Shown piece by piece: positions 11,441 to 57,870 of a DNA stretch of 64,000 bases; position 1 is the stretch's first letter, and every line of letters begins with the position of its first letter. The notes under the pieces were generated by a model. That model had not been told where the DNA came from. It saw only the letters and a program-made list of their open reading frames with translations, and searched no databases. The stretch is from Antedon mediterranea (Eukaryota; Animalia; Echinodermata). Made by a program: the position numbers and the translations under genes. Location of the stretch: positions 14,145,045 to 14,209,044 of the forward strand of contig NC_092680.1 in assembly GCF_964355755.1 (NCBI RefSeq). The letters run 5' to 3'.

Positions 11441-11446
11441 TCTAAG

Positions 11447-18146: not shown

Positions 18147-19558
18147 ATGAACAGCCGACACTCAGTAGTCTGGAGGTTTCTGACGGTTTCTATACTAAAC
18201 TATGTAGTATTTGCAAACGGTAAGAGTAATACACTCACAGTGTCATTTTAAAATGTGTTTTATATTTTGAAAAACTTGGCAAAATTACTAAATTTGACAA
18301 TTTATATATATGAATTGAATTTTTTTCTGATTATCGATGCAAACTGCATGCATGAATCTATTAATATAATAATGATATAGGCCTAACGTACATTTTTGAA
18401 AGGTTTTTGTTTTACATGCTTTAGATTATCCAACAAAATGGAACATAGTTTGCAATGCAGTGTTCTAATCTCATCGTATTTGTTTGTTGTCACTCTCTGT
18501 CCATAATTTTAATTTAGGCCTACGTTATAAAATGCAACTTTACAAACTTACTGTACATTGTACATTTCCTTCTATGTCAGATGATTGTCCAGAAGAAGTC
18601 AAACACGGAGAAAGAAATAGTAAGGGTGAAGTGACATGTGACACGGGCTACAACAGAGTAGAATGTAGTACACCAACTCCTGCACCAGCAGGATATGAGG
18701 CGGCGAAATGTGAACTTGGTGGTAAGCGTTATCAAATTCATACTCATGAAAGCCCTTCAGACTTAGGCGGGTAATTTTGTATATATATATATATTTGATT
18801 ATATCAGCAGCGCATTTATTCAACAAGTCTTTTTTTTCAGATTTAGTTTCTCTTGCTGTCGCCGTTGCTTTGATGGTCATCCTCGTTATTGCTTCCATTT
18901 TTATTTTATCCATTATTTTGCGAAGGTAACGTTACACTAGTTTGCAATTATAGTTTTAACATGTATGTGTATTCTGTTTCGATGGAAAATAGAGGTAATT
19001 AAACGATGTCGATATTTATATACTTGCATTGTTATTTGTCAAATTTAAACATTAATTGTTTTAGATAAAACAATCAAATAGAATTAATGTATATACAATA
19101 ATAATCATCATTATCATCATTTGTTCCATAGTCTACATTTTGCATATTATTTTTTATAAGAATAATGTTACATACATCTGGTAATTACTGGTAAAAATGT
19201 TAAAATGCATATTTGCACTGAATCTATATATTCATGATTTTTGTAACAGATTTTGTAATAGAGGAATACGTTCACGTCGGAGAGATTTGACAACAAACTC
19301 AGCTATAGTAGAAGGTGGTTCGGTATTAGAATCAGGGTATGGCTACTACTAATGTTATTTATGTGCGAACAATATTGAGAACATTAACACAATTTTATAT
19401 TCCTAAGTGATTTTGCCAATGTAGTATTCCTGAAATACTTACTTTGGCCTCTATTGTAATTCTTTAGGATTGAAGTGACTGTAGCCAATGATGAACTTTA
19501 TAGAATTCAAGAACCACGCTATGTGTATGAACAACAACTTATATCCACACAAAAATAA
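18147..19558 (+). CDS. Type I membrane protein: signal peptide, single sushi/CCP-like module, TM helix, Tyr-motif cytoplasmic tail (158 aa if read to TAA)
   Basis: Exons 18147-18219 (MNSRHSVVWRFLTVSILNYVVFAN), 18581-18721 (DDCPEEVKHGERNSKGEVTCDTGYNRVECSTPTPAPAGYEAAKCELG, phase 1-1), 18841-18925 (DLVSLAVAVALMVILVIASIFILSIILRR), 19250-19336 (FCNRGIRSRRRDLTTNSAIVEGGSVLESG), 19468-19558 (IEVTVANDELYRIQEPRYVYEQQLISTQK*). All four introns are GT-AG and phases match. Confidence 0.82.
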
Positions 19559-19653
19559 GTTATAATGAGTTTTGCTAAAAGTGTATTGTATCTTTCTCTG
19601 TTTCTTACCTTATGTGAATGCTTATTCTCTTTTTATAATGGTTTTATTGTTAG

Positions 19654-19761
19654 AAATTGTCAACAAGAAGCAGATAATGAAGCCACCGATGGATGTGATG
19701 TTGATGTAACTGACGGAATCCAACTACACCATGCGTACGAAAAATTTATATTGACTCAAAC
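19654..19761 (+). CDS. 108-bp phase 2-2 cytoplasmic exon, copy 1 (NCQQEADNEATDGCDVDVTDGIQLHHAYEKFILTQ)
   Basis: Acceptor ttttattgttag|, donor |gtaagt, open frame; 3' end resembles the previous exon (YEQQLISTQ). Confidence 0.72.
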
Positions 19762-19842
19762 GTAAGTTAATGAACAACTTCCTGGTTTTACCATACGTAT
19801 ATATATTTCTCTCTTGTCTGTATTGTTATTCTTAACGCTTTA

Positions 19843-21279
19843 TTAGGTTATATGCATTATCATGCATATGACCTCTTGATTCTGTCAAAATCTTTGTTTA
19901 TTTATTCTTTCCTTAGCACTATTTTGTCCGTGAATTATCTTGATATCAGTTTCATCTAGCTAAGTCAATTTTTCAGAGTATATTCCTTATGGCCAGGAAT
20001 CGATGTGGTTATGTTTTCACGGTGCGCAATCAAACATTACGCGGTCTACGCGCGATTTAATGAAATCACGTTTGTAATCATATCTTCACAAGCATGAATC
20101 ATTTTTAAACAAAATTTGGTACTCATAAATGTCAGGTCATATTTCATCATATGGCAATACGATTACGTGTGTAGCGCATATAACGCATGCGTACGCGCGC
20201 TTAAAATGTTCAAAATTGTCAGAATTTATTTTTGATGAAATTAGACTACGTTTCAGGCAATTTTAAGCGTTTAAAAAACTACCATGAGTGCAGATTTTTG
20301 CGCGTCAAACGTTAATACGCACTTTTTTTGTCCGATTACTGTTGTATAACCTTTCTTTGATAATATCATCATATTTTATTCACTTTTCAACGCGAAACAG
20401 CGTTATACGAGCAAGTTAACGAGGTAAGTTAACAAAATGGTAAAAATATGCTAAATTTTAAAATTAATATATATCGTTAGAATGCTCGGGAACACCAATT
20501 TTTTATTTCATTTTCTTGAAGTGTATGTATCATATGTATTATTTATTATGAAATTAAGAGAAAAAAAGTTGATTAAGTCATCATTAATGGCATATTAAAT
20601 TTAAAAAAAATTATTTTGACAATCAAACAAATTATAACATTTTCTTAGGCCGAAATAACAAACTTAACATTAACTTTCTTCCTTAAGAAGTTCATATATT
20701 AAAGTTAAAAGTATATAGTTTGACAGTGCATCATTTGTTTACATTTTAAAGATGTCATCATAGTAAAAAATTATAATTCATTGCGGTATGTAATAATCTA
20801 TTTTCACCAAACTGGTTACTGCATAGTAAATACACGGAGGAATTTTTCTACAACTTTTAGTCAGTTGTGTATGGCTCGATGGTCTGTGCTCGTGTCTATG
20901 GCATTCAAGGTACCGAGATCGAGTCTCACCTTGGGAAACGAAATAATATTTTTTTTTATTATCCGTATTGTTTGTTCAAATTTATTTCTTAGTGTATAGA
21001 TTATACACATGATTTATAATGAAATCTAGATAAAAAGTAACTTATGTCTTTATTATTATGTAACAACAAATGTGGTTTATGACATTATACGCATATGGAT
21101 CTTTGATCGGATTGTGATACCAGCTATGGTGTTCGCGTTAGCAAGGTCCTATCATATATTATAAATAATTAAAGATTCTGAGAAAACCAATCAATCAATA
21201 TATCTTTTAAAAATCAATTATCTTTATTTAAATCAATGCATATAACCTATAATTCGTCATAGTGACGAATTAAATCTAG
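19843..21279 (+). mobile_element. HINE (Helentron-type non-autonomous element), variant A, first copy
   Basis: 5' palindrome aggttatatgcattatcatgcatat(g/a)acct; 3' subterminal inverted repeat aatgcatataacct, hairpin aattcgtcatagtgacgaatt, end ctag|tt; no TSD. Confidence 0.8.
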
Positions 21280-23941
21280 TTTATTTATTCTTTCCTTAGC
21301 ACTATTTTGTCCGTGAATTATCTTGATATCAGTTTCATCTATCTAAGTCAATTTTTCAGAGTATATTCCTTATGGCCAGGAATCGATGTGGTTATGTTTT
21401 CACGGTGCGCAATCAATCATTATGCGGTCTACGCGCGATTTAACGAAATCACGTTTGTAATCATATCTTCACAAGCATGAATCACAATTAAACAAAATTT
21501 GGTACTCATAAATGTCAGGTCATATTTCATCATATGGCAATACAATTACGTGCGTAGCGCATATAACGCTTGCGTACGCGCGCTTAAAATGTTCAAAATT
21601 GTCAAAATTTATTTTCGATGAAATTAGAGTACGTTTCAGGCAATTTTAGGCGTTTAAAAAATTGCCATGAGTGCGCAGATTTTTGCCCGATTTCTGTTTT
21701 ACAGTCTTTCTTTAATAATATCATCATATTTGATCCACTTTTCAACTCGAAATTGCGTTATACGAGCACGTCAAAAGTGACAGGCTACGCACGTATAAGT
21801 TAACAAAATGGTGAAAATATGCTAAATTTTAAAATTAATATATATCGTCAGAATGCTGGGGAACACCTATTTTTTTGTTTCATTTTCTTGAAGTGTATGT
21901 ATCATATGTTTGATTTATTATCAAATTAAGAGAACAAAAGTTTATTAAGTCTTCATTAATTGCATATTAAATTTAAAAAAAATTATTTCGACAATCAAAC
22001 AAATTATGACATTTTCTTAGGCCGAAATAACAAACTTAACATTAACTTTCTTTCTTAAGAAGTTCATCATCATTTTTTTACATTTTTAAAGATGTCATCA
22101 TAGTAAATAATTATAATTCATTGCGGTATGTAATAATCTATTTGCACCAAAGTGGTTACTGCATAGTAAATACACAGAGGAATTTTTCTACAACTTTTAG
22201 TCAGTTGTGTATGGCTCGATGGTCTGTGCTCGTGTCTATGGCATTCAAGGTACCGAGATCGAGTCTCACCTTGGGAAACGAAATAAGATTTTTTTTTTTT
22301 ATTATCCGTATTGTTTGTTCAAATTTATTTCTTAGTGTATAGATTATACACATGATTTATAATGAAATCTAGATAAAAAGTAACTTATGTCTTTATTATT
22401 ATGTAACAACAAATGTGGTTTATGACATTATACGCATATGGATCTTTGACCGGATTGTGATACCGGCTAAGGTGTTCGCGTTAGCAAGGTCCTATCATCT
22501 ATATATAAATTATGGTTAATTCTGACATAGGCGAGCACAATGCAAAAACTTCGGTACAAATTTCCGCCTTGGATACCTACCTTATCTATCCGAGATGTAC
22601 CGCGAAACGTAGATTTGATAACATTAGTGTGCACGCCGACGCTATTGTTCCATATTTATATCTTAGGAAGATATTATAAAGAGTTTTTTAACAACATTTA
22701 TGATTTCAACATTGGATTTTCCTCTCAATTTCAATTCTTCCCGGTCAAAGTAATTTCCGGGTTTAAGATAAGTTCACCTTAGTTTCAAATATTTTCTCTC
22801 TTTTATACACAAGGGAGCAGTTAAAATAATAGATTTGACCCTAAAGGTGGCACTTTCCATCAATCAATACAGTGTCCCTTTGGAAGACGAAAAAAAAATT
22901 GGCCATTAATCATAGCCATTTCAGTTTTTTGTTTATTTTAAAACATACCACACTTGTGTGAAGGTACAGTAGTTAAATAATAGGAATTATACTGCAAATT
23001 AATAAAGATCAAATTAAATATACGCCATAAAGAATCAGAATATATTGTGGGGAATAGTATTATAAAATTACATAGGGAGATTTGATAAGACATTTTTCGA
23101 GTGAAATCCCGATAGCTGAGTTTTATTGAGTAAGCTTGCAGGAATAACTGTAGGCTATCTTCCTGTGTCCCGTTAGGACCGAGATGTCTGCCCATGTTGC
23201 AAGCCGTAATGTCTTCTTTCTTGGGCCCACTCTGTCACGGCAGTTAGTTTCAAAAGATGATTAAATTAAATAATGTATTAATAATTATTAGGATGGTATT
23301 CATTTGAATAAACGCCTCTCCAATAAAACATCACTTTGAATAATAACAACCCCCCTCCCCACCCCACAACCCAACTATCTAATAAACGTCCATCCACATA
23401 TTTATAATAACACAATTTTAATATTTGTAGTAGAATTCACCGCACTGTTATCTGCAATTTACCAAGCATTTGTTATTCTTTTTAACCACTTTTCATATCT
23501 ATGAGAGGATTTCATTTGATTATAAATGTTACCATATTATTAGAACTAAAAAATTTAAAATATATCCCTCGAATAAGCAACTCCCTCAAATGACCTCCGC
23601 CTCCCCAAAGGGCCCTACCAAACAATAAAAACTATACTTTAAAATGTTATTAATCATCTAAAACACTTTGAAACAAAGTAGTTTAGTTTTACGAATGTCA
23701 AGCATTTTCAATAATGGTAACCGACAGAAAATGTATAAGGAGAACATTATCATTCCGAGAACCATCGTCTACACTTCCTAGAGGGGGAGCGAGCGAAGCG
23801 AGCTCACCCTCTAGTATATTATAAATAATTACAGATTCTGAGAAAATCAATCAATCAATATATCTTTTAAAAATCAATTATCTTTATTTAAATCAATGCA
23901 TATAACCTATAATTCGTCATATAGTGACGAATTAAATCTAG
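21280..23941 (+). mobile_element. HINE variant B, lacking the first ~54 bp, with nested Helitron
   Basis: Starts right after the CTAG of A at the sequence equivalent to 19897; same 3' structure. Confidence 0.8.
22498..23814 (+). mobile_element. Non-autonomous Helitron (1317 bp), copy 1
   Basis: 5' TC, 3' CTAG, subterminal hairpin gagggggagc..gctcaccctc, inserted between A and T with no TSD; empty site cctatca|tatattata at 42286/42287 and 43948/43949. Confidence 0.92.
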
Positions 23942-23970
23942 TTCTCTTTTTATAATGGTTTTATTGTTAG

Positions 23971-24078
23971 AAATTGTCAACAAGAAGCAGATAATGAAGC
24001 CACCGATGGATGTGATGTTGATGTAACTGACGGAATCCAACTACACCATGCGTACGAAAAATTTATATCGACTCAAAC
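23971..24078 (+). CDS. 108-bp exon, copy 2 (..HAYEKFISTQ)
   Basis: Same splice sites and open frame; TCG instead of TTG. Confidence 0.6.
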
Positions 24079-26846
24079 GTAAGTTAATGAACAACTTCCT
24101 GGTTTTACCATACGTATATATATTTCTCTCTTGTCTGTATTGTTATTCTTAACGCTTTATTAGGTTATATGCATTATCATGCATATGACCTCTTGATTCT
24201 TTCAAAATCTTTGTTTATTTATTCTTTCCTTAGCACTATTTTGTCCGTGAATTATCTTGATATCAGTTTCATCTAGCTAAGTCAATTTTTCAGAGTATAT
24301 TCCTTATGGCCAGGAATCGATGTGGTTATGTTTTCACGGTGCGCAATCAAACATTACGCGGTCTACGCGCGATTTAATGAAATCACGTTTGTAATCATAT
24401 CTTCACAAGCATGAATCATTTTTAAACAAAATTTGGTACTCATAAATGTCAGGTCATATTTCATCATATGGCAATACGATTACGTGTGTAGCGCATATAA
24501 CGCATGCGTACGCGCGCTTAAAATGTTCAAAATTGTCAGAATTTATTTTTGATGAAATTAGACTACGTTTCAGGCAATTTTAAGCGTTTAAAAAACTACC
24601 ATGAGTGCAGATTTTTGCGTGTCAAACGTTAATACGCACTTTTTTTGTCCGATTACTGTTGTATAACCTTTCTTTAATAATATCATCATATTTTATTCAC
24701 TTTTCAACGCGAAACAGCGTTATATGAGCAAGTTAACGAGGTAAGTTAACAAAATGGTAAAAATATGCTAAATTTTAAAATTAATATATATCGTTAGAAT
24801 GCTCGGGAACACCAATTTTTTATTTCATTTTCTTGAAGTGTATGTATCATATGTATGATTTATTATGAAATTAAGAGAAAAAAAGTTGATTAAGTCATCA
24901 TTAATGGCATATTAAATTTAAAAAAAATTATTTTGACAATCAAACAAATTATAACATTTTCTTAGGCCGAAATAACAAACTTAACATTAACTTTCTTCCT
25001 TAAGAAGTTCATATATTAAAGTTAAAAGTATATAGTTTGACAGTGCATCATTTGTTTACATTTTAAAGATGTCATCATAGTAAAAAATTATAATTCATTG
25101 CGGTATGTAATAATCTATTTGCACCAAACTGGTTACTGCATAGTAAATACACGGAGGAATTTTTCTACAACTTTTAGTCAGTTGTGTATGGCTCGATGGT
25201 CTGTGCTCGTGTCTATGGCATTCAAGGTACCGAGATCGAGTCTCACCTTGGGAAACGAAATAATATTTTTTTTTATTATCCGTATTGTTTGTTCAAATTT
25301 ATTTCTTAGTGTATAGATTATACACATGATTTATAATGAAATCTAGATAAAAAGTAACTTATGTCTTTATTATTATGTAACAACAAATGTGGTTTATGAC
25401 ATTATACGCATATGGATCTTTGATCGGATTGTGATACCAGCTATGGTGTTCGCGTTAGCAAGGTCCTATCATATATTATAAATAATTAAAGATTCTGAGA
25501 AAACCAATCAATCAATATATCTTTTAAAAATCAATTATCTTTATTTAAATCAATGCATATAACCTATAATTCGTCATAGTGACGAATTAAATCTAGTTTA
25601 TTTATTCTTTCCTTAGCACTATTTTGTCCGTGAATTATCTTGATATCAGTTTCATCTATCTAAGTCAATTTTTCAGAGTATATTCCTTATGGCCAGGAAT
25701 CGATGTGGTTATGTTTTCACGGTGCGCAATCAATCATTATGCGGTCTACGCGCGATTTAACGAAATCACGTTTGTAATCATATCTTCACAAGCATGAATC
25801 ACAATTAAACAAAATTTGGTACTCATAAATGTCAGGTCATATTTCATCATATGGCAATACAATTACGTGCGTAGCGCATATAACGCTTGCGTACGCGCGC
25901 TTAAAATGTTCAAAATTGTCAAAATTTATTTTCGATGAAATTAGAGTACGTTTCAGGCAATTTTAGGCGTTTAAAAAATTGTCATGAGTGCGCAGATTTT
26001 TGCCCGATTTCTGTTTTACAGTCTTTCTTTAATAATATCATCATATTTGATCCACTTTTCAACTCGAAATTGCGTTATACGAGCACGTCAAAAGTGACAG
26101 GCTACGCACGTATAAGTTAACAAAATGGTGAAAATATGCTAAATTTTAAAATTAATATATATCGTCAGAATGCTGGGGAACACCTATTTTTTGTTTCATT
26201 TTCTTGAAGTGTATGTATCATATGTTTGATTTATTATCAAATTAAGAGAACAAAAGTTTATTAAGTCTTCATTAATTGCATATTAAATTTAAAAAAAATT
26301 ATTTCGACAATCAAACAAATTATGACATTTTCTTAGGCCGAAATAACAAACTTAACATTAACTTTCTTTCTTAAGAAGTTCATATATTAAAGTTAAAAGT
26401 ATATAGTTTGACAGTGCATCATTTTTTTACATTTTTAAAGATGTCATCATAGTAAAAAATTATAATTCATTGCGGTATGTAATAATCTATTTGCACCAAA
26501 GTGGTTACTGCATAGTAAATACACAGAGGAATTTTTCTACAACTTTTAGTCAGTTGTGTATGGCTCGATGGTCTGTGCTCGTGTCTATGGCATTCAAGGT
26601 ACCGAGATGGAGTCTCACCTTGGGAAACGAAATAAGATTTTTTTTTTTTATTATCCGTATTGTTTGTTCAAATTTATTTCTTAGTGTATAGATTATACAC
26701 ATAATTTATAATGAAATCTAGATAAAAAGTAACTTATGTCTTTATTATTATGTAACAACAAATGTGGTTTATGACATTATACGCATATGGATCTTTGACC
26801 GGATTGGGATACCGGCTAAGGTGTTCGCGTTAGCAAGGTCCTATCA

Positions 26847-28163
26847 TCTATATATAAATTATGGTTAATTCTGACATAGGCGAGCACAATGCAAAAACTT
26901 CTCTACAAATCTCCGCCTTGGATACCTACCTTATCTATCCGAGATGTACCGCGAAACGTAGATTTGATAACATTAGTGTGCACGCCGACGCTATTGTTCC
27001 ATATTTATATCTTAGGAAGATATTATAAAGAGTTTTTTAACAACATTTATGATTTCAACATTGGATTTTCCTCTCAATTTCAATTCTTCCCGGTCAAAGT
27101 AATTTCCGGGTTTAAGATAAGTTCACCTTAGTTTCAAATATTTTCTCTCTTTTATACACAAGGGAGCAGTTAAAATAATAGATTTGACCCTAAAGGTGGC
27201 ACTTTCCATCAATCAATACAGTGTCCCTTTGGAAGACGAGAAAAAAATTGGCCATTAATCATAGCCATTTCAGTTTTTTGTTTATTTTAAAACATACCAC
27301 ACTTGTGTGAAGGTACAGTAGTTAAATAATAGGAATTATACTGCAAATTAATAAAGATCAAATTAAATATACGCCATAAAGAATCAGAATATATTGTGGG
27401 GAATAGTATTATAAAATTACATAGGGAGATTTGATAAGACATTTTTCGAGTGAAATCCCGATAGCTGAGTTTTATTGAGTAAGCTTGCAGGAATAACTGT
27501 AGGCTATCTTCCTGTGTCCCGTTAGGACCGAGATGTCTGCCCATGTTGCAAGCCGTAATGTCTTCTTTCTTGGGCCCACTCTGTCACGGCAGTTAGTTTC
27601 AAAAGATGATTAAATTAAATAATGTATTAATAATTATTAGGATGGTATTCATTTGAATAAACGCCTCTCCAATAAAACATCACTTTGAATAATAACAACC
27701 CCCCTCCCCACCCCACAACCCAACTATCTAATAAACGTCCATCCACATATTTATAATAACACAATTATAATATTTGTAGTAGAATTCACCGCACTGTTAT
27801 CTGCAATTTACCAAGCATTTGTTATTCTTTTTTACCACTTTTCATATCTATGAGAGGATTTCATTTGATTATAAATGTTACCATATTATTAGAACTAAAA
27901 AATTTAACATATATCCCTCGAATAAGCAACTCCCTCAAATGACCTCCGCCTCCCCAAAGGGCCCTACCAAACAATAAAAACTATACTTTAAAATGTTATT
28001 AATCATCTAAAACACTGTGAAACAAAGTAGTTTAGTTTTACGAATGTCAAGCATTTTCAATAATGGTAACCGACAGAAAATGTATAAGGAGAACATTATC
28101 ATTCCGAGAACCATCGTCTACACTTCCTAGAGGGGGAGCGAGCGAAGCGAGCTCACCCTCTAG
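26847..28163 (+). mobile_element. Non-autonomous Helitron, copy 2
   Basis: Same termini and site. Confidence 0.92.
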
Positions 28164-28319
28164 TATATTATAAATAATTACAGATTCTGAGAAAATCAAT
28201 CAATCAATATATCTTTTAAAAATCAATTATCTTTATTTAAATCAATGCATATAACCTATAATTCGTCATATAGCGACGAATTAAATCTAGTTCTCTTTTT
28301 ATAATGGTTTTATTGTTAG

Positions 28320-28427
28320 AAATTGTCAACAAGAAGCAGATAATGAAGCCACCGATGGATGTGATGTTGATGTAACTGACGGAATCCAACTACACCATGC
28401 GTACGAAAAATTTATATCGACTCAAAC
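28320..28427 (+). CDS. 108-bp exon, copy 3
   Basis: Intact AG/GT and open frame. Confidence 0.6.
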
Positions 28428-31001
28428 GTAAGTTAGTGAACAACTTCCTGGTTTTACCATACGTATATATATTTCTCTCTTGTCTGTATTGTTATTCTTA
28501 ACGCTTTATTAGGTTATATGCATTATCATGCATATAACCTCTTGATTCTGTCAAAATCTTTGTTTATTTATTCTTTCCTTAGCACTATTTTGTCCGTGAA
28601 TTATCTTGATATCAGTTTCATCTAGCTAAGTCAATTTTTCAGAGTATATTCCTTATGGCCAGGAATCGATGTGGTTATGTTTTCACGGTGCGCAATCAAA
28701 CATTATGATGAAATTAGACTACGTTTCAGGCAATTTTAAGCGTTTAAAAAACTACCATGTGTGCAGATTTTTGCGTGTCAAACGTTAATACGCACTTTTT
28801 TTGTCCGATTACTGTTGTATAACCTTTCTTTAATAATATCATCATATTTTATTCACTTTTCAACGCGAAACAGCGTTATACGAGCAAGTTAACGAGGTAA
28901 GTTAACAAAATGGTAAAAATATGCTAAATTTTAAAATTAATATATATCGTTAGAATGCTCGGGAACACCAATTTTTTATTTCATTTTCTTGAAGTGTATG
29001 TATCATATGTATGATTTATTATGAAATTAAGAGAAAAAAAGTTGATTAAGTCATCATTAATGGCATATTAAATTTAAAAAAAATTATTTTGACAATCAAA
29101 CAAATTATAACATTTTCTTAGGCCGAAATAACAAACTTAACATTAACTTTCTTCCTTAAGAAGTTCATATATTAAAGTTAAAAGTATATAGTTTGACAGT
29201 GCATCATTTGTTTACATTTTAAAGATGTCATCATAGTAAAAAATTATAATTCATTGCGGTATGTAATAATCTATTTGCACCAAACTGGTTACTGCATAGT
29301 AAATACACGGAGGAATTTTTCTACAACTTTTAGTCAGTTGTGTATGGCTCGATGGTCTGTGCTCGTGTCTATGGCATTCAAGGTACCGAGATCGAGTCTC
29401 ACCTTGGGAAACGAAATAATATTTTTTTTTATTATCCGTATTGTTTGTTCAAATTTATTTCTTAGTGTATAGATTATACACATGATTTATAATGAAATCT
29501 AGATAAAAAGTAACTTATGTCTTTATTATTATGTAACAACAAATTTGGTTTATGACATTATACGCATATGGATCTTTGATCGGATTGTGATACCAGCTAT
29601 GGTGTTCGCGTTAGCAAGGTCCTATCATATATTATAAATAATTAAAGATTCTGAGAAAACCAATCAATCAATATATCTTTTAAAAATCAATTATCTTTAT
29701 TTAAATCAATGCATATAACCTATAATTCGTCATAGTGACGAATTAAATCTAGTTTATTTATTCTTTCCTTAGCACTATTTTGTCCGTGAATTATCTTGAT
29801 ATCAGTTTCATCTATCTAAGTCAATTTTTCAGAGTATATTCCTTATGGCCAGGAATCGATGTGGTTATGTTTTCATGGTGCGCAATCAATCATTATGCGG
29901 TCTACGCGCGATTTAACGAAATCACGTTTGTAATCATATCTTCACAAGCATGAATCACAATTAAACAAAATTTGGTACTCATAAATGTCAGGTCATATTT
30001 CATCATATGGCAATACAATTACGTGCGTAGCGCATATAACGCTTGCGTACGCGCGCTTAAAATGTTCAAAATTGTCAAAATTTATTTTCGATGAAATTAG
30101 AGTACGTTTCAGGCAATTTTAGGCGTTTAAAAAATTGCCATGAATGCGCAGATTTTTGCCCGATTTCTGTTTTACAGTCTTTCTTTAATAATATCATCAT
30201 ATTTGATCCACTTTTCAACTCGAAATTGCGTTATACGAGCACGTCAAAAGTGACAGGCTACGCACGTATAAGTTAACAAAATGGTGAAAATATGCTAAAT
30301 TTTAAAATTAATATATATCGTCAGAATGCTGGGGAACACCTATTTTTTGTTTCATTTTCTTGAAGTGTATGTATCATATGTTTGATTTATTATCAAATTA
30401 AGAGAACAAAAGTTTATTAAATCTTCATTAATTGCATATTAAATTTAAAAAAAATTATTTCGACAATCAAACAAATTATGACATTTTCTTAGGCCGAAAT
30501 AACAAACTTAACATTAACTTTCTTTCTTAAGAAGTTCATATATTAAAGTTAAAAGTATATAGTTTGACAGTGCATCATTTTTTTACATTTTTAAAGATGT
30601 CATCATAGTAAAAAATTATAATTCATTGCGGTATGTAATAATCTATTTGCACCAAAGTGGTTACTGCATAGTAAATACACAGAGGAATTTTTCTACAACT
30701 TTTAGTCAGTCGTGTATGGCTCGATGGTCTGTGCTCGTGTCTATGGCATTCAAGGTACCGAGATCGAGTCTCACCTTGGGAAACGAAATAAGATTTTTTT
30801 TTTTATTATCCGTATTGTTTGTTCAAATTTATTTCTTAGTGTATAAATTATACACATGATTTATAATGAAATCTAGATAAAAAGTAACTTATGTCTTTAT
30901 TATTATGTAACAACAAATGTGGTTTATGACATTATACGCATATGGATCTTTGACCGGATTGTGATACCGGCTAAGGTGTTCGCGTTAGCAAGGTCCTATC
31001 A

Positions 31002-32318
31002 TCTATATATAAATTATGGTTAATTCTGACATAGGCGAGCACAATGCAAAAACTTCGGTACAAATCTCCGCCTTGGATACCTACCTTATCTATCCGAGAT
31101 GTACCGCGAAACGTAGATTTGATAACATTAGTGTGCACGCCGACGCTATTGTTCCATATTTATATCTTAGGAAGATATTATAAAGAGTTTTTTAACAACA
31201 TTTATGATTTCAACATTGGATTTTCCTCTCAATTTCAATTCTTCCCGGTCAAAGTAATTTCCGGGTTTAAGATAAGTTCACCTTAGTTTCAAATATTTTC
31301 TCTCTTTTATACACAAGGGAGCAGTTAAAATAATAGATTTGACCCTAAAGGTGGCACTTTCCATCAATCAATACAGTGTCCCTTTGGAAGACGAAAAAAA
31401 AATTGGCCATTAATCATAGCCATTTCAGTTTTTTGTTTATTTTAAAACATACCACACTTGTGTGAAGGTACAGTAGTTAAATAATAGGAATTATACTGCA
31501 AATTAATAAAGATCAAATTAAATATACGCCATAAAGAATCAGAATATATTGTGGGGAATAGTATTATAAAATTACATAGGGAGATTTGATAAGACATTTT
31601 TCGAGTGAAATCCCGATAGCTGAGTTTTATTGAGTAAGCTTGCAGGAATAACTGTAGGCTATCTTCCTGTGTCCCGTTAGGACCGAGATGTCTGCCCATG
31701 TTGCAAGCCGTAATGTCTTCTTTCTTGGGCCCACTCTGTCACGGCAGTTAGTTTCAAAAGATGATTAAATTAAATAATGTATTAATAATTATTAGGATGG
31801 TATTCATTTGAATAAACGCCTCTCCAATAAAACATCACTTTGAATAATAACAACCCCCCTCCCCACCCCACAACCCAACTATCTAATAAACGTCCATCCA
31901 CATATTTATAATAACACAATTATAATATTTGTAGTAGAATTCACCGCACTGTTATCTGCAATTTACCAAGCATTTGTTATTCTTTTTTACCACTTTTCAT
32001 ATCTATGAGAGGATTTCATTTGATTATAAATGTTACCATATTATTAGAACTAAAAAATTTAACATATATCCCTCAAATAAGCAACTTCCTCAAATGACCT
32101 CCGCCTCCCCAAAGGGCCCTACCAAACAATAAAAACTATACTTTAAAATGTTATTAATCATCTAAAACACTGTGAAACAAAGTAGTTTAGTTTTACGAAT
32201 GTCAAGCATTTTCAATAATGGTAACCGACAGAAAATGTATAAGGAGAACATTATCATTCCGAGAACCATCGTCTACACTTCCTAGAGGGGGAGCGAGCGA
32301 AGCGAGCTCACCCTCTAG
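31002..32318 (+). mobile_element. Non-autonomous Helitron, copy 3
   Basis: Same termini and site. Confidence 0.92.
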
Positions 32319-32474
32319 TATATTATAAATAATTACAGATTCTGAGAAAATCAATCAATCAATATATCTTTTAAAAATCAATTATCTTTATTTAAATCAA
32401 TGCATATAACCTATAATTCGTCATATAGTGACGAATTAAATCTAGTTCTCTTTTTATAATGGTTTTATTGTTAG

Positions 32475-32582
32475 AAATTGTCAACAAGAAGCAGATAATG
32501 AAGCCACCGATGGATGTGATGTTGATGTAACTGACGGAATCCAACTACACCATGCGTACGAAAAATTTATATCGACTCAAAC
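32475..32582 (+). CDS. 108-bp exon, copy 4
   Basis: Intact AG/GT and open frame. Confidence 0.6.
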
Positions 32583-33784
32583 GTAAGTTAATGAACAACT
32601 TCCTGGTTTTACCATACGTATATATATTTCTCTCTTGTCTGTATTGTTATTCTTAACGCTTTATTAGGTTATATGCATTATCATGCATATAACCTCTTGA
32701 TTCTGTCAAAATCTTTGTTTATTTATTCTTTCCTTAGCACTATTTTGTCCGTGAATTATCTTGATATCAGTTTCATCTAGCTAAGTCAATTTTTCAGAGT
32801 ATATTCCTTATGGCCAGGAATCGATGTGGTTATGTTTTCACGGTGCGCAATCAAACATTATGATGAAATTAGACTACGTTTCAGGCAATTTTAAGCGTTT
32901 AAAAAACTACCATGTGTGCAGATTTTTGCGTGTCAAACGTTAATACGCACTTTTTTTGTCCGATTACTGTTGTATAACCTTTCTTTAATAATATCATCAT
33001 ATTTTATTCACTTTTCAACGCGAAACAGCGTTATACGAGCAAGTTAACGAGGTAAGTTAACAAAATGGTAAAAATATGCTAAATTTTAAAATTAATATAT
33101 ATCGTTAGAATGCTCGGGAACACCAATTTTTTATTTCATTTTCTTGAAGTGTATGTATCATATGTATGATTTATTATGAAATTAAGAGAAAAAAAGTTGA
33201 TTAAGTCATCATTAATGGCATATTAAATTTAAAAAAAATTATTTTGACAATCAAACAAATTATAACATTTTCTTAGGCCGAAATAACAAACTTAACATTA
33301 ACTTTCTTCCTTAAGAAGTTCATATATTAAAGTTAAAAGTATATAGTTTGACAGTGCATCATTTGTTTACATTTTAAAGATGTCATCATAGTAAAAAATT
33401 ATAATTCATTGCGGTATGTAATAATCTATTTGCACCAAACTGGTTACTGCATAGTAAATACACGGAGGAATTTTTCTACAACTTTTAGTCAGTTGTGTAT
33501 GGCTCGATGGTCTGTGCTCGTGTCTATGGCATTCAAGGTACCGAGATCGAGTCTCACCTTGGGAAACGAAATAAGATTTTTTTTTTTATTATCCGTATTG
33601 TTTGTTCAAATTTATTTCTTAGTGTATAAATTATACACATGATTTATAATGAAATCTAGATAAAAAGTAACTTATGTCTTTATTATTATGTAACAACAAA
33701 TGTGGTTTATGACATTATACGCATATGGATCTTTGACCGGATTGTGATACCGGCTAAGGTGTTCGCGTTAGCAAGGTCCTATCA

Positions 33785-35101
33785 TCTATATATAAATTAT
33801 GGTTAATTCTGACATAGGCGAGCACAATGCAAAAACTTCGGTACAAATCTCCGCCTTGGATACCTACCTTATCTATCCGAGATGTACCGCGAAACGTAGA
33901 TTTGATAACATTAGTGTGCACGCCGACGCTATTGTTCCATATTTATATCTTAGGAAGATATTATAAAGAGTTTTTTAACAACATTTATGATTTCAACATT
34001 GGATTTTCCTCTCAATTTCAATTCTTCCCGGTCAAAGTAATTTCCGGGTTTAAGATAAGTTCACCTTAGTTTCAAATATTTTCTCTCTTTTATACACAAG
34101 GGAGCAGTTAAAATAATAGATTTGACCCTAAAGGTGGCACTTTCCATCAATCAATACAGTGTCCCTTTGGAAGATGAAAAAAAAATTGGCCATTAATCAT
34201 AGCCATTTCAGTTTTTTGTTTATTTTAAAACATACCACACTTGTGTGAAGGTACAGTAGTTAAATAATAGGAATTATACTGCAAATTAATAAAGATCAAA
34301 TTAAATATACGCCATAAAGAATCAGAATATATTGTGGGGAATAGTATTATAAAATTACATAGGGAGATTTGATAAGACATTTTTCGAGTGAAATCCCGAT
34401 AGCTGAGTTTTATTGAGTAAGCTTGCAGGAATAACTGTAGGCTATCTTCCTGTGTCCCGTTAGGACCGAGATGTCTGCCCATGTTGCAAGCCGTAATGTC
34501 TTCTTTCTTGGGCCCACTCTGTCACGGCAGTTAGTTTCAAAAGATGATTAAATTAAATAATGTATTAATAATTATTAGGATGGTATTCATTTGAATAAAC
34601 GCCTCTCCAATAAAACATCACTTTGAATAATAACAACCCCCCTCCCCACCCCACAACCCAACTATCTAATAAACGTCCATCCACATATTTATAATAACAC
34701 AATTATAATATTTGTAGTAGAATTCACCGCACTGTTATCTGCAATTTACCAAGCATTTGTTATTCTTTTTTACCACTTTTCATATCTATGAGAGGATTTC
34801 ATTTGATTATAAATGTTACCATATTATTAGAACTAAAAAATTTAACATATATCCCTCAAATAAGCAACTCCCTCAAATGACCTCCGCCTCCCCAAAGGGC
34901 CCTACCAAACAATAAAAACTATACTTTAAAATGTTATTAATCATCTAAAACACTGTGAAACAAAGTAGTTTAGTTTTACGAATGTCAAGCATTTTCAATA
35001 ATGGTAACCGACAGAAAATGTATAAGGAGAACATTATCATTCCGAGAACCATCGTCTACACTTCCTAGAGGGGGAGCGAGCGAAGCGAGCTCACCCTCTA
35101 G
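33785..35101 (+). mobile_element. Non-autonomous Helitron, copy 4
   Basis: Same termini and site. Confidence 0.92.
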
Positions 35102-35257
35102 TATATTATAAATAATTACAGATTCTGAGAAAATCAATCAATCAATATATCTTTTAAAAATCAATTATCTTTATTTAAATCAATGCATATAACCTATAAT
35201 TCGTCATATAGTGACGAATTAAATCTAGTTCTCTTTTTATAATGGTTTTATTGTTAG

Positions 35258-35365
35258 AAATTGTCAACAAGAAGCAGATAATGAAGCCACCGATGGATGT
35301 GATGTTGATGTAACTGACGGAATCCAACTACACCATGCGTACGAAAAATTTATATCGACTCAAAC
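35258..35365 (+). CDS. 108-bp exon, copy 5
   Basis: Intact AG/GT and open frame. Confidence 0.6.
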
Positions 35366-37908
35366 GTAAGTTAATGAACAACTTCCTGGTTTTACCATAC
35401 GTATATATATTTCTCTCTTGTCTGTATTGTTATTCTTAACGCTTTATTAGGTTATATGCATTATCATGCATATAACCTCTTGATTCTGTCAAAATCTTTG
35501 TTTATTTATTCTTTCCTTAGCACTATTTTGTCCGTGAATTATCTTGATATCAGTTTCATCTAGCTAAGTCAATTTTTCAGAGTATATTCCTTATGGCCAG
35601 GAATCGATGTGGTTATGTTTTCACGGTGCGCAATCAAACATTATGATGAAATTAGACTACGTTTCAGGCAATTTTAAGCGTTTAAAAAACTACCATGTGT
35701 GCAGATTTTTGCGTGTCAAACGTTAATACGCACTTTTTTTGTCCGATTACTGTTGTATAACCTTTCTTTAATAATATCATCATATTTTATTCACTTTTCA
35801 ACGCGAAACAGCGTTATACGAGCAAGTTAACGAGGTAAGTTAACAAAATGGTAAAAATATGCTAAATTTTAAAATTAATATATATCGTTAGAATGCTCGG
35901 GAACACCAATTTTTTATTTCATTTTCTTGAAGTGTATGTATCATATGTATGATTTATTATGAAATTAAGAGAAAAAAAGTTGATTAAGTCATCATTAATG
36001 GCATATTAAATTTAAAAAAAATTATTTTGACAATCAAACAAATTATAACATTTTCTTAGGCCGAAATAACAAACTTAACATTAACTTTCTTCCTTAAGAA
36101 GTTCATATATTAAAGTTAAAAGTATATAGTTTGACAGTGCATCATTTGTTTACATTTTAAAGATGTCATCATAGTAAAAAATTATAATTCATTGCGGTAT
36201 GTAATAATCTATTTGCACCAAACTGGTTACTGCATAGTAAATACACGGAGGAATTTTTCTACAACTTTTAGTCAGTTGTGTATGGCTCGATGGTCTGTGC
36301 TCGTGTCTATGGCATTCAAGGTACCGAGATCGAGTCTCACCTTGGGAAACGAAATAATATTTTTTTTTTATTATCCGTATTGTTTGTTCAAATTTATTTC
36401 TTAGTGTATAGATTATACACATGATTTATAATGAAATCTAGATAAAAAGTAACTTATGTCTTTATTATTATGTAACAACAAATTTGGTTTATGACATTAT
36501 ACGCATATGGATCTTTGATCGGATTGTGATACCAGCTATGGTGTTCGCGTTAGCCAGGTCCTATCATATATTATAAATAAATAAAGATTCTGAGAAAACC
36601 AATCAATCAATATATCTTTTAAAAATCAATTATCTTTATTTAAATCAATGCATATAACCTATAATTCGTCATAGTGACGAATTAAATCTAGTTTATTTAT
36701 TCTTTCCTTAGCACTATTTTGTCCGTGAATTATCTTGATATCAGTTTCATCTATCTAAGTCAATTTTTTAGAGTATATTCCTTATGGCCAGGAATCGATG
36801 TGGTTATGTTTTCACGGTGCGCAATCAATCATTATGCGGTCTACGCGCGATTTAACGAAATCACGTTTGTAATCATATCTTCACAAGCATGAATCACAAT
36901 TAAACAAAATTTGGTACTCATAAATGTCAGGTCATATTTCATCATATGGCACTACAATTACGTGCGTAGCGCATATAACGCTTGCGTACGCGCGCTTAAA
37001 ATGTTCAAAATTGTCAAAATTTATTTTCGATGAAATTAGAGTACGTTTCAGGCAATTTTAGGCGTTTAAAAAATTGCCATGAGTGCGCAGATTTTTGCCC
37101 GATTTCTGTTTTACAGTCTTTCTTTAATAATATCATCATATTTGATCCACTTTTCAACTCGAAATTGCGTTATACGAGCACGTCAAAAGTGACAGGCTAC
37201 GCACGTATAAGTTAACAAAATGGTGAAAATATGCTAAATTTTAAAATTAATATATATCGTCAGAATGCTGGGGAACACCTATTTTTTTGTTTCATTTTCT
37301 TGAAGTGTATGTATCATATGTTTGATTTATTATCAAATTAAGAGAACAAAAGTTTATTAAGTCTTCATTAATTGCATATTAAATTTAAAAAAGATTATTT
37401 CGACAATCAAACAAATTATGACATTTTCTTAGGCCGAAATAACAAACTTAACATTAACTTTCTTTCTTAAGAAGTTCATCATCATTTTTTTACATTTTTA
37501 AAGATGTCATCATAGTAAATAATTATAATTCATTGCGGTATGTAATAATCTATTTGCACCAAAGTGGTTACTGCATAGTAAATACACAGAGGAATTTTTC
37601 TACAACTTTTAGTCAGTTGTGTATGGCTCGATGGTCTGTGCTCGTGTCTATGGCATTCAAGGTACCGAGATCGAGTCTCACCTTGGGAAACGAAATAAGA
37701 TTTTTTTTTTTATTATCCGTATTGTTTGTTCAAATTTATTTCTTAGTGTATAGATTATACACATGATTTATAATGAAATCTAGATAAAAAGTAACTTATG
37801 TCTTTATTATTATGTAACAACAAATGTGGTTTATGACATTATACGCATATGGATCTTTGACCGGATTGTGATACCGGCTAAGGTGTTCGCGTTAGCAAGG
37901 TCCTATCA

Positions 37909-39256
37909 TCTATATATAAATTATGGTTAATTCTGACATAGGCGAGCACAATGCAAAAACTTCGGTACAAATCTCCGCCTTGGATACCTACCTTATCTAT
38001 CCGAGATGTACCGCGAAACGTAGATTTGATAACATTAGTGTGCACGCCGACGCTATTGTTCCATATTTATATCTTAGGAAGATATTATAAAGAGTTTTTT
38101 AACAACATTTATGATTTCAACATTGGATTTTCCTCTCAATTTCAATTCTTCCCGGTCAAAGTAATTTCCGGGTTTAAGATAAGTTCACCTTAGTTTCAAA
38201 TATTTTCTCTCTTTTATACACAAGGGAGCAGTTAAAATAATAGATTTGACCCTAAAGGTGGCACTTTCTATCAATCAATACAGTGTCCCTTTGGAAGACG
38301 AAAAAAAAATTGGCCATTAATCATAGCCATTTCAGTTTTTTGTTTATTTTAAAACATACCACACTTGTGTGAAGGTACAGTAGTTAAATAATAGGAATTA
38401 TACTGCAAATTAATAAAGATCAAATTAAATATACGCCATAAAGAATCAGAATATATTGTGGGGAATAGTATTATAAAATTACATAGGGAGATTTGATAAG
38501 ACATTTTTCGAGTGAAATCCCGATAGCTGAGTTTTATTGAGTAAGCTTGCAGGAATAACTGTAGGCTATCTTCCCGTGTCCCGTTAGGACCGAGATGTCT
38601 GCCCATGTTGCAAGCCGTAATGTCTTCTTTCTTGGGCCCACTCTGTCACGGCAGTTAGTTTCAAAAGATGATTAAATTAAATAATGTATTAATAATTATT
38701 AGGATGGTATTCATTTGAATAAACGCCTCTCCAATAAAACATCACTTTGAATAATAACAACCCCCCTCCCCACCCCACAACCCAACTATCTAATAAACGT
38801 CCATCCACATATTTATAATAACACAATTATAATATTTGTAGTAGAATTCACCGCACTGTTATCTGCAATTTACCAAGCATTTGTTATTCTTTTTTACCAC
38901 TTTTCATATCTATGAGAGGATTTCATTTGATTATAAATGTTACCATATTATTAGAACTAAAAAATTTAACATATATCCCTCGAATAAGCAACTCCCTCAA
39001 ATGACCTCCGCCTCCCCAAAGGGCCCTACCAAACAATAAAAACTATACTTTAAAATGTTATTAATCATCTAAAACACTGTGAAACAAAGTAGTTTAGTTT
39101 TACGAATGTCAAGCATTTTCAATAATGGTAACCGACAGAAAATGTATAAGGAGAACATTATCATTCCGAGAACCATCGTCTACACTTCCTAGAGGGGGAG
39201 CGAGCGAAGCGAGCTCACCCTCGAGGGGGAGCGAGCGAAGCGAGCTCACCCTCTAG
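37909..39256 (+). mobile_element. Non-autonomous Helitron, copy 5, with duplicated 31-bp terminal hairpin
   Basis: gagggggagcgagcgaagcgagctcaccctc occurs twice in tandem at 39192-39253. Confidence 0.92.
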
Positions 39257-39412
39257 TATATTATAAATAATTACAGATTCTGAGAAAATCAATCAATCAA
39301 TATATCTTTTAAAAATCAATTATCTTTATTTAAATCAATGCATATAACCTATAATTCGTCATATAGTGACGAATTAAATCTAGTTCTCTTTTTATAATGG
39401 TTTTATTGTTAG

Positions 39413-39520
39413 AAATTGTCAACAAGAAGCAGATAATGAAGCCATCGATGGATGTGATGTTGATGTAACTGACGGAATCCAACTACACCATGCGTACGAA
39501 AAATTTATATCGACTCAAAC
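39413..39520 (+). CDS. 108-bp exon, copy 6 (T>I variant)
   Basis: Intact AG/GT; ACC>ATC. Confidence 0.6.
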
Positions 39521-42442: not shown

Positions 42443-42550
42443 AAATTGTCAACAAGAAGCAGATAATGAAGCCACCGATAGATGTGATGTTGATGTAACT
42501 GACGGAATCCAACTACACCATGCGTACGAAAAATTTATATCGACTCAAAC
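42443..42550 (+). CDS. 108-bp exon, copy 7 (G>R variant)
   Basis: Intact AG/GT; GGA>AGA. Confidence 0.6.
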
Positions 42551-44104
42551 GTAAGTTATTGAACAACTTCCTGGTTTTACCATACGTATATATATTTCTC
42601 TCTTGTCTGTATTGTTATTCTTAACGCTTTATTAGGTTATATGCATTATCATGCATATAACCTCTTGATTCTGTCAAAATCTTTGTTTATTTATTCTTTC
42701 CTTAGCACTATTTTGTCCGTGAATTATCTTGATATCAGTTTCATCTAGCTAAGTCAATTTTTCAGAGTATATTCCTTATGGCCAGGAATCGATGTGGTTA
42801 TGTTTTCACGGTGCGCAATCAAACATTACGCGGTCTACGCGCGATTTAATGAAATCACGTTTGTAATCATATCTTCACAAGCATGAATCATTTTTAAACA
42901 AAATTTGGTACTCATAAATGTCAGGTCATATTTCATCATATGGCAATACGATTACGTGTGTAGCGCATATAACGCATTCGTACGCGCGCTTAAAATGTTC
43001 CAAATTGTCAGAATTTATTTTTGATGAAATTAGACTACGTTTCAGGCAATTTTAAGCGTTTAAAAAACTACCATGAGTGCAGATTTTTGCGCGTCAAACG
43101 TTAATACGCACTTTTTTTGTCCGATTACTGTTGTATAACCTTTCTTTAATAATATCATCATATTTTATTCACTTTTCAACGCGAAACAGCGTTATACGAG
43201 CAAGTTAACAAGGTAAGTTAACAAAATGGTAAAAATATGCTAAATTTTAAAATTAATATATATCGTCAGAATGCTGGGGAACACCAATTTTTTATTTCAT
43301 TTTCTTGAAGTGTATGTATCATATGTTTGATTTATTATCAAATTAAGAGAACAAAAGTTTATTAAATCTTCATTAATTGCATATTAAATTTAAAAAAAAT
43401 TATTTCGACAATCAAACAAATTATGACATTTTCTTAGGCCGAAATAACAAACTTAACATTAACTTTCTTTCTTAAGAAGTTCATATATTAAAGTTAAAAG
43501 TATATAGTTTGACAGTGCATCATTTTTTTACATTTTTAAAGATGTTATCATAGTAAAAAAATTATAATTCATTGCGGTATGTAATAATCTATTTGCACCA
43601 AAGTGGTTACTGCATAGTAAATACACAGAGGAATTTTTCTACAACTTTTAGTCAGTTGTGTATGGCTCGATGGTCTGTGCTCGTGTCTATGGCATTCAAG
43701 GTACCGAGATCGGGTCTCACCTTGGGAAACGAAATAAGATTTTTTTTTTTTATTATCCGTATTGTTTGTTCAAATTTATTTCTTAGTGTATAGATTATAC
43801 ACATGATTTATAATGAAATCTAGATAAAAAGTAACTTATGTCTTTATTATTATGTAACAACAAATGTGGTTTATGACATTATACGCATATGGATCTTTGA
43901 CCGGATTGTGATACCGGCTAAGGTGTTCGCGTTAGCAAGGTCCTATCATATATTATAAATAATTACAGATTCTGAGAAAATCAATCAATCAATATATCTT
44001 TTAAAAATCAATTATCTTTATTTAAATCAATGCAAATAACCTATAATTCGTCATATAGTGACGAATTAAATCTAGTTCTCTTTTTATAATGGTTTTATTG
44101 TTAG

Positions 44105-44212
44105 AAATTGTCAACAAGAAGCAGATAATGAAGCCACCGATGGATGTGATGTTGATGTAACTGACGGAATCCAACTACACCATGCGTACGAAAAATTTAT
44201 ATCGACTCAAAC
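44105..44212 (+). CDS. 108-bp exon, copy 8
   Basis: Intact AG/GT and open frame. Confidence 0.6.
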
Positions 44213-57790: not shown

Positions 57791-57870
57791 GCATACATAT
57801 ATATCCCTGCACAGTCGCTTCGTTCCCTGACTTGACTTCAGTTTGTCTGTTCTTCGATGTTTTTGTGTTA

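What the first reader, a model, noticed from the sequence alone, without database searches (positions are those of the whole stretch)
23880..23975. Every duplication breakpoint is a HINE 3' CTAG joined to an upstream TT site: a mechanism for exon capture
Seen: units 2-8 start aaatctag|ttctcttttt whereas the original context is gctta|ttctcttttt (19625), ~220 bp upstream of the HINE 5' end and 29 bp before the exon, so the acceptor tract is kept. The A-to-B junction is the same kind of join (ctag|tttatttattc, equal to internal site 19897), as are 59582 and 62594. Inference: the element's 3' end was strand-transferred to a nearby upstream TT; an internal target gives 5'-truncated tandems and an external target duplicates host flank. 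One such event followed by unequal crossover would be enough.
Basis: partly seen in the sequence, partly recalled or inferred. Interest (0 to 1): 0.72.

Follow-up and report, generated by a model that had tools for sequence, protein, structure and literature searches.

The report
Exon array from recombining transposon copies
A small exon of an animal gene sits in eight tandem copies, seven of them starting exactly at the tail end of a rolling-circle-type transposon, but the copies carry a crossover scar that makes ordinary transposon insertion followed by unequal recombination the likely cause rather than a new exon-capture reaction, much as was proposed for a fruit-fly gene.

Summary
The junction letters are real, but the 12 joins in the array are copies of two events, and 59582 and 62594 are not duplication breakpoints: they close as ordinary nested insertions, each tail with its own head. 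CTAG|TT is this family's normal insertion end. Other breakpoints in the array are not at CTAG. The new evidence is a crossover scar. The A copies match the last unit's element left of element position 842-899 (51 of 54 informative sites) and resemble B right of it (10 of 10), while the exon copies are nearly identical. The end at the exon junction therefore likely belongs to an incoming family member. Best reading (0.6): a self-nested HINE pair inserted at TT 19625/6 on another chromosome copy, then unequal crossover with the resident HINE, then further unequal crossovers. This resembles Drosophila hydra/DINE-1. The exon is duplicated in place; capture is not shown. A one-ended join is not excluded (about 0.3 for two variants together).

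The parts
19625..19839 (+). Duplicated host piece H, original copy: 29 bp of intron with acceptor, 108-nt exon 19654-19761 (phase 2-2 predicted), donor and 78 bp of intron
   Evidence: two contigs of a run guessed to be RNA start and stop at the exon's edges
19840..21279 (+). HINE copy A of unit 1: 5' arm with hairpin, 3' arm, stem-loop, CTAG end; likely a hybrid of the resident copy (left) and another family member (right)
20681..20738 (+). Interval of the inferred founding crossover (element position 842-899); the same interval is 45132-45189 in unit 8
21280..23941 (+). HINE copy B of unit 1, lacking its first 57 bases; its CTAG end forms the exon junction
22498..23814 (+). Canonical non-autonomous Helitron (TC start, hairpin, CTAG end, between A and T) inside B of units 1-5, absent from units 6-7
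23934..23951 (+). Exon junction CTAG|TT (23941|23942); repeated at 28290, 32445, 35228, 39383, 42413, 44075; one event
21272..21290 (+). A-to-B join CTAG|TT, 55 bases behind the start of the 5' arm; repeated at 25596, 29752, 36691, 41037; one event
23942..45467 (+). Units 2-8 of the array (H starts 23942, 28291, 32446, 35229, 39384, 42414, 44076); 8 of 8 exon copies keep AG, GT and an open frame
32661..35228 (+). Unit 4 element: A/B hybrid (switch between element positions 997 and 1108)
42629..44075 (+). Unit 7 element: A/B hybrid (patchy switch, element positions about 581-699)
44291..45467 (+). Unit 8 element, likely the unrecombined resident copy; cut at element position 1177 by another insertion; its 3' end is not in the window
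45468..52740 (+). Nest of a third HINE-type family: heads 45580, 49841, 50733 pair with tails 49840, 50724, 51397, inserted serially in the TTTG tract of an outer copy; a LINE interrupts the first
57870..64000 (+). Nest of a second HINE-type family: four heads (arms at 57874, 57935, 58004, 61119), tails 59582, 61102, 62594; outer copy open at the window's end
18581..19554 (+). Upstream predicted exons of the host gene (18581-18721 cysteine-bearing, 18841-18925 hydrophobic, likely membrane-spanning, 19250-19336, 19468-19554); the donor after the last reads AT here but GT in three runs
   Evidence: no Pfam hit for the 5 pieces scanned

Best explanation
The exon array likely arose by ordinary insertion followed by unequal crossover: a HINE copy (B) carrying a second copy (C) nested 55 bases behind its head likely sat at the TT at 19625/6 on another copy of the chromosome, and a crossover between C and the resident copy R at element position 842-899 would give exactly exon - R/C hybrid - headless B - CTAG|TT - exon - R. 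That one crossover would drop both missing heads, leave both CTAG|TT joins as plain insertion ends and make A a hybrid. Later unequal crossovers raised the count to eight. Shown: the joins, the terminus, the switch point, the nests in families 2 and 3, and hybrids in units 4 and 7. Inferred: the parental haplotype with B+C at 19625/6, and that unit 8 rather than A is the unrecombined copy.
For: Switch point: A equals unit 8 at 51 of 54 informative sites on the left and equals B at 10 of 10 on the right, four of those ten in one block; 0 of 5000 permutations reach it. Without that block, each of 5 A copies differs from unit 8 at 4-7 of 620-813 sites on the left and 9-10 of 295 on the right (Fisher p=0.003 for u2A). 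A versus B falls from 53 of 785 to 12 of 559 (p=8e-5). The event is young: H differs at 1 of 215 sites between unit 1 and the common form of units 2-8. That is like the 8 substitutions in 1205 host bases against run X1, and unlike unit 8's distal 9 of 295 (p=0.002). Needed processes are visible here. Family members insert 59, 69 and 71 bases behind heads in family 2, against 55 for the A-B join. Six of six tails in families 2 and 3 pair with a head of matching arm type. Two more crossovers between 93%-alike copies occurred inside the array (units 4 and 7). One sample has the resident head with an unduplicated exon: a contig runs unbroken over 19504-19867. Precedent: hydra/DINE-1 (PMC1904467) and DNAREP1 at duplicate breakpoints (PMC2211543).
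Against: The parental haplotype was not seen: no joint 19625-to-19841 among 15 of 122 joints shown, and no genome is held. In the distal segment A-B (5 of 296) is not significantly lower than B-unit 8 (9 of 295; p=0.30), so the foreign distal part could be unit 8's. H (1 of 215) against 9 of 295 is only borderline (Fisher p=0.05; binomial 0.009 at 3.1%), so an older duplication with a homogenised left part is not excluded. The model needs a nested pair to land 216 bp from a same-strand resident copy; Helraiser showed no local hopping (PMC4778049). The resident's 3' end and right flank are not in the window.
Confidence: 0.6

Rival explanations
1. One reading: the resident element's own CTAG end was joined to an upstream TT (a one-ended transfer, or a circle begun or ended at the wrong TT), once internally and once in host DNA; the product re-entered the locus and unequal crossover expanded it.
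For: Both joins are at the exact terminus and a TT, with 0-1 base of microhomology. Both lack the head that a full insertion would bring (no head upstream of 19835). Head-to-tail circles are shown for Helraiser (PMC4778049) and suggested for FoHeli1 (PMC5148889 abstract). End bypass was proposed for DINE-1-linked duplications (PMC4067079 section 15).
Against: It predicts A = B at birth and unit 8 = A throughout. Seen: A and B differ at 53 of 785 sites on the left, and A and unit 8 switch sharply, so at least two extra exchanges are needed. At 7 of the 8 listed family-variable sites A departs from the family majority and B carries the majority letter at all 8 (8 of the best-supported rows, 148 rows not shown). 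Its supporting cases in family 2 fall away. In Helraiser the 5' end is the essential start and flank capture is downstream (PMC4778049); here the copied flank is upstream.
Confidence: 0.17
2. Homology-guided half-insertion: an incoming B+C strand or circle paired with the resident copy, its CTAG end was joined by the transposase to a nearby TT (19625/6), and the other end was resolved by strand exchange at position 842-899, with no intermediate haplotype.
For: It gives the same product as the best explanation, including the hybrid point and the missing heads. It would explain why a new copy landed 216 bp from a same-strand relative and why copies cluster behind heads.
Against: No observation requires it. 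The T-rich tract behind heads explains self-insertion by TT preference alone (inference and PMC4067079 passages). No precedent found in five literature searches.
Confidence: 0.15
3. Assembly artefact: the array or its junction was built by the assembler.
For: Untested directly; the window's own reads were not available.
Against: Units carry nested shared variants (Helitron in units 1-5, 190-bp deletion in units 3-5, 33-bp deletion in units 1 and 5) and clean hybrids; B copies differ pairwise at 3-10 sites.
Confidence: 0.05
4. Transposase-independent repair (template switch or end joining) that happened to break at the hairpin.
For: The 3' hairpin is stable (z -5.0) and could stall replication (inference).
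Against: The join is 9 bases past the stem, exactly where 13, 16, 2 and 15 contigs of other copies end, with no microhomology.
Confidence: 0.03

Closest known systems
Drosophila hydra exon-1 array with DINE-1 (Chen et al. 2007, PMC1904467; passages and section 15 read)
   Same: Tandem exon copies (nine there, eight here), most followed 3' by a HINE-type element, exon beside rather than inside the element, expansion ascribed to unequal crossover, copy number varying between lines.
   Different: Here the exon is internal and predicted frame-symmetric, the elements are young with intact ends, the junction is base-exact at the terminus, and a founding crossover can be placed.
DINE-1/DNAREP1 at breakpoints of young gene duplicates (Yang et al. 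2008, PMC2211543; Kogan et al. 2012, PMC3359341; passages read)
   Same: HINE-type elements at duplication breakpoints; NAHR versus transposase action left open, NAHR favoured by Yang et al.
   Different: Those are mostly dispersed duplicates with decayed elements; this is a local tandem with readable ends.
HINE / Helentron non-autonomous elements (Thomas et al. 2014, PMC4067079; passages and section 15 read); HLE2 (PMC11417382, passages)
   Same: Subterminal inverted arms, 5' hairpin, 3' stem-loop, TT target, no duplication of the target, clustering; end bypass already proposed for linked duplications.
   Different: End reads CTAG before the Ts; no autonomous partner in the window.
FoHeli self-insertion and multiple 5' termini (Chellapan et al. 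2016, PMC5148889; abstract and sections 6, 10, 14 read)
   Same: Copies inserted a few tens of bases behind the head of another copy (repeated heads of 31-85 nt there).
   Different: There two heads with one tail; in family 1 here one head with two tails, and whole nests in families 2 and 3.
Helitron 3' read-through capture (Grabundzija et al. 2016, PMC4778049; passages and Discussion read)
   Same: CTAG-ended rolling-circle element next to duplicated host DNA; head-to-tail joins exist.
   Different: Capture there is downstream of the 3' end and the piece moves elsewhere; here the piece is upstream of the head and stays in place.
ToxB-HLE tandem amplification model (bioRxiv 10.1101/2025.11.13.688278; passages read)
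   Same: Tandem host-gene units whose junction holds a Helitron-like right end; insertion, then rolling circle and unequal crossover proposed.
   Different: That model is unvalidated by its authors' own words and rests on putative ends; here the ends belong to an abundant family and the units are mosaic.

Membership tests
HINE (non-autonomous Helentron/HLE2) | Subterminal inverted arms at 5' and 3' ends | tested here: met
   5' arm at 19842 onward matches the reverse complement near each 3' end
HINE (non-autonomous Helentron/HLE2) | Short inverted repeat pairing with the 5' arm | tested here: met
   hairpin z -6.2, 0 of 200 shuffles
HINE (non-autonomous Helentron/HLE2) | [quoted passage not shown] | tested here: met
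   z -5.0, 0 of 200 shuffles
HINE (non-autonomous Helentron/HLE2) | Insertion at TT without target duplication | tested here: met
   contigs in 4 of 4 runs end at CTAG+TT with mixed flanks; nests of families 2 and 3 close without duplication; an empty site for family 1 was not seen
HINE (non-autonomous Helentron/HLE2) | No coding capacity | tested here: met
   0 of 14 ORFs of 110 aa or more lie in 19625-45467
HINE (non-autonomous Helentron/HLE2) | Autonomous Rep/Hel partner with matching ends | not testable with these tools
   no genome held; no Rep/Hel family hit among the 6 of 14 window ORFs scanned
Helitron-type gene capture (transduction) | Host piece lies between the element's ends and moves with it to a new locus | tested here: not met
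   unit 1's exon has host DNA on its left and no head; the two longest DNA contigs listed over H in run X4 are this locus and a likely paralog with its own intron (list cut)
Helitron-type gene capture (transduction) | Captured flank lies downstream of a bypassed 3' end | tested here: not met
   the copied flank is upstream of the head; polarity from PMC4778049
Single rolling-circle concatemer | Identical units made at once | tested here: not met
   Helitron in 5 of 7 B-type tails, nested deletions and hybrids
Repeat-mediated unequal crossover (NAHR) duplication | Hybrid repeat with a switch point in the duplication | tested here: met
   switch at element position 842-899
Repeat-mediated unequal crossover (NAHR) duplication | Parental repeats on both sides of the duplicated piece | tested here: inconclusive
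   the right repeat is present in one other sample; a repeat at 19625/6 was not seen among 15 of 122 joints shown
Canonical Helitron (insert in B) | TC start, 3' hairpin, CTAG end, A^T target | tested here: met
   the empty form is unit 6's B

The most novel reading that the evidence does not exclude
Helentron transposase can complete only the CTAG-end half of an insertion at a TT beside a related resident copy, with homology resolving the other end (or can start a circle at a TT upstream of the head). HINE tails would then directly duplicate upstream host exons with their splice sites, a route to tandem exon arrays with the opposite polarity to Helitron 3' capture.
Probability: 0.3. Interest if true: 0.65.

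Novelty: new member of a known kind. Interest (0 to 1): 0.32.

Why it matters
Whether DINE-1/HINE elements cause gene and exon duplications by recombination or by their own transposition has been left open in print (PMC4067079, PMC2211543, PMC1904467), because the fly elements are decayed. This locus is young, has intact ends and keeps a likely founding crossover, so it is a clean test case, and it points to recombination. It also warns that CTAG|TT joins and headless tandem copies are what nested insertion leaves behind. The biological weight of the array is doubtful: splicing of the extra exons is untested, and this haplotype reads AT instead of GT at the donor just upstream of the array.

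Tried and rejected
Genome-wide scan: impossible, no genome held. Reads: no RNA holder listed on record; one run is only guessed to be RNA. No contig of the 4 runs laid bridges 23941|23942 among the 32 of 556 pieces shown, and no joint was listed. These are other or unknown individuals and contigs show presence only, so this is not counted for or against. No exon-to-exon go-back joint in the guessed RNA run: not informative for the same reason. Naming the host gene failed: 0 Pfam families for 5 pieces; the homologue search and the atlas gave no result. Search for the resident's 3' end right of 45467 found none. Search for a displaced family-1 head left of 19835 found none. A hairpin at the 19625 target was rejected (z -1.1). 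Family-2 joins as tandem duplications were rejected: bodies are 76-85% alike, and the odd body and tail (61102) pair with the odd head (57935). Earlier-note look-ups by place near, words and sequence returned nothing. One X4 contig joins a family-1 tail region to a head-proximal site (21272 to 19942); it fits nesting elsewhere but does not separate the models.

Full report
What was checked. The window was self-compared and decomposed. From 19625 to 45467 lie eight units of a 215-bp host piece H (acceptor, 108-nt exon 19654-19761, donor) followed by a 1.44-kb non-coding element A and, in five units, a second copy B that lacks its first 57 bases. Units 4 and 7 hold single A/B hybrids, and unit 8 is cut by another insertion. 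The element has HINE anatomy: inverted arms, a 5' hairpin (z -6.2) and a 3' stem-loop (z -5.0). No genome is held. Earlier unreviewed notes call the organism a feather star; I did not test that.

Observation. All quoted junctions exist: seven CTAG|TTCTC, five CTAG|TTTAT, and CTAG|TT at 59582, 61102 and 62594. The distances of 29 bp and about 216 bp are right. In 4 of 4 public runs, contigs of other family copies stop at CTAG+TT and go on into unrelated flanks (13, 16, 2 and 15 contigs, agreement 0.49-0.58). The seven and the five joins are each copies of one event. What needs explaining is not the join but the missing head that a full insertion would have brought.

The supporting cases are nested insertions. 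Family 2 has four heads and three tails in the window. The head at 57935 has a variant arm that matches only the tail at 61102; that tail is 79% alike to the other two, which are 96% alike to each other, and its body is the most divergent (76-80%). Closing the nest restores continuous T-rich tracts that align with intact heads, including the 12-base spacer after 61102. Insertions lie 59, 69 and 71 bases behind the outer head. Family 3 behaves alike: three heads, three matching tails, serially placed in a TTTG tract. So 6 of 6 tails in these two families have their own head; only the two family-1 joins lack one. I had noted the nest reading before the look-up. Earlier notes report the same habit on other DNA of this genome, 37-81 bases behind heads (AI notes, not support), and self-insertion was proposed for FoHeli (PMC5148889, sections 10 and 14). 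The A-B join at 55 bases falls in that zone.

Not every breakpoint is at CTAG. Inside the array are two A/B crossovers (units 4 and 7), a 190-bp deletion shared by units 3-5, a 33-bp deletion in units 1 and 5, a Helitron present in units 1-5 and absent from 6-7, and a 31-bp duplication of its hairpin. It also shows that crossovers between diverged family copies happen at this locus.

The crossover scar. Comparing the majority A (5 copies), the majority B (5 copies) and unit 8's element over positions 58-1177, 64 of 68 variable gap-free sites split A=unit 8 or A=B. The other four were left out of the test (two B=unit 8, two all different). Left of position 842-899, A sides with unit 8 at 51 of 54; right of it with B at 10 of 10, four of them in one block (0 of 5000 permutations). 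With the block removed, every A copy differs from unit 8 at 4-7 of 620-813 sites on the left and 9-10 of 295 on the right (p=0.003). A against B drops from 53 of 785 to 12 of 559 (p=8e-5). B differs from unit 8 by 3.6, 13, 6 and 3% in four segments. Meanwhile H differs at 1 of 215 sites between unit 1 and the common form of the rest, about the level seen between this window and run X1 in host DNA (8 substitutions in 1205 bases over five contigs). So the duplication is young, and three different family members meet in the array: a resident R, a copy C giving A's right part, and B.

Mechanism. The shortest history is: R sits in the intron; on another chromosome copy B lands at the TT at 19625/6 with C nested behind its head; R and C misalign and cross over at 842-899. 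The product is exon - R/C - headless B - CTAG|TT - exon - R, which is the observed start and end of the array. Steps shown: terminus, joins, switch point, nesting habit, later crossovers. One other sample carries R's head with the exon in its original context on one unbroken contig (19504-19867). Steps inferred: the parental haplotype, and which of A or unit 8 holds the foreign right part.

Against it. The parental haplotype was not seen (15 of 122 joints shown). Distal A-B is not significantly below distal B-unit 8 (p=0.30), and H against unit 8's distal divergence is borderline (Fisher p=0.05). So a local one-ended join with a later swap of unit 8's right part, or an older duplication with a homogenised left part, stays open. 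A same-strand nest landing 216 bp from a relative is a coincidence unless targeting helps. The family is abundant (contig depth over the element is hundreds to thousands of times that over the host flank, a rough measure), but Helraiser showed no local hopping (PMC4778049). R's 3' end is outside the window.

Exon capture. All 8 exon copies keep AG, GT and an open frame, with one shared and two private amino-acid changes. Two contigs of a run guessed to be RNA match the exon's edges, so the exon is likely real. But it lies beside, not within, the element, upstream of the head rather than downstream of the tail, and no moved copy was seen; this is duplication in place. Whether several copies are spliced is untested, and the donor upstream of the array reads AT in this haplotype. 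The gene is a predicted single-pass membrane protein without a Pfam hit in the five pieces scanned.

Literature. Seen: PMC1904467 (passages, section 15), PMC4067079 (passages, section 15), PMC2211543 and PMC3359341 (passages), PMC5148889 (abstract, sections 6, 10, 14), PMC4778049 (passages, Discussion), PMC11417382 (passages), bioRxiv 10.1101/2025.11.13.688278 (passages). Five searches listed no paper showing a base-exact HINE 3' end joined to its own upstream flank; the library lacks most subscription journals. Papers on tandem plant Helitrons and on tandem insertions in Drosophila are recalled, not read. No supplements were read; those of PMC1904467 and PMC2211543 hold breakpoint alignments that could contain such joins.

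Verdict. Observation partly confirmed; interpretation partly supported. This is a new, unusually readable member of a known kind: an exon array built around HINE copies, likely by recombination. Interest 0.32. The novel reading (a transposase-made one-ended join that duplicates upstream exons) keeps about 0.3 probability and would deserve 0.65.

Noticed in passing
window 971-11440: A 10.5-kb insertion with about 350-bp inverted ends starting TATGGGG and a 6-bp target duplication splits a copy of the same Helitron (174-969 and 11440-11630); it holds an integrase-core ORF (rva_4, E 2e-69). The IS3EU label that fits these ends is recalled, not from a call.
   Followed up: partly
window 19553-19556: The donor of the predicted exon before the array reads AT here and GT in runs X1, X4 and X8; retaining the 99-nt intron gives an immediate stop. 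This allele may be damaged or skip that 87-nt exon.
   Followed up: partly
window 19654-19761: A second, 10-11-site different copy of the exon occurs in contigs of DNA runs and of the guessed RNA run, so the host gene likely has a paralog.
   Followed up: no
window 22498-23814 and copies: A canonical Helitron sits inside a HINE in units 1-5 but not 6-7; in unit 5 its 3' hairpin is duplicated (31 bp, 39226-39256).
   Followed up: partly
window 61186-61775: A roughly 300-bp head-proximal block is repeated (80% alike) with a join near 61482 that is not at CTAG; family 2 thus has five body starts for four heads. Unexplained.
   Followed up: no
window 45615-49215 (-) and 54600-57790 (+): Two broken LINE-type retroelements (RVT_1 and zf-RVT; Exo_endo_phos); the first sits inside a family-3 HINE head with a short target duplication.
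   Followed up: partly
window 5757-7010: An old solo relative of these HINEs with a decayed tail ending CTAG|TT at 7010; 68-72% alike to family-2 bodies.
   Followed up: no
window 50379-50648: A 77% alike piece of the family-1 body lies inside the family-3 nest, suggesting chimeric elements between families.
   Followed up: no
window 52953-53864: An element with about 350-bp inverted arms (80% alike), MITE-like.
   Followed up: no
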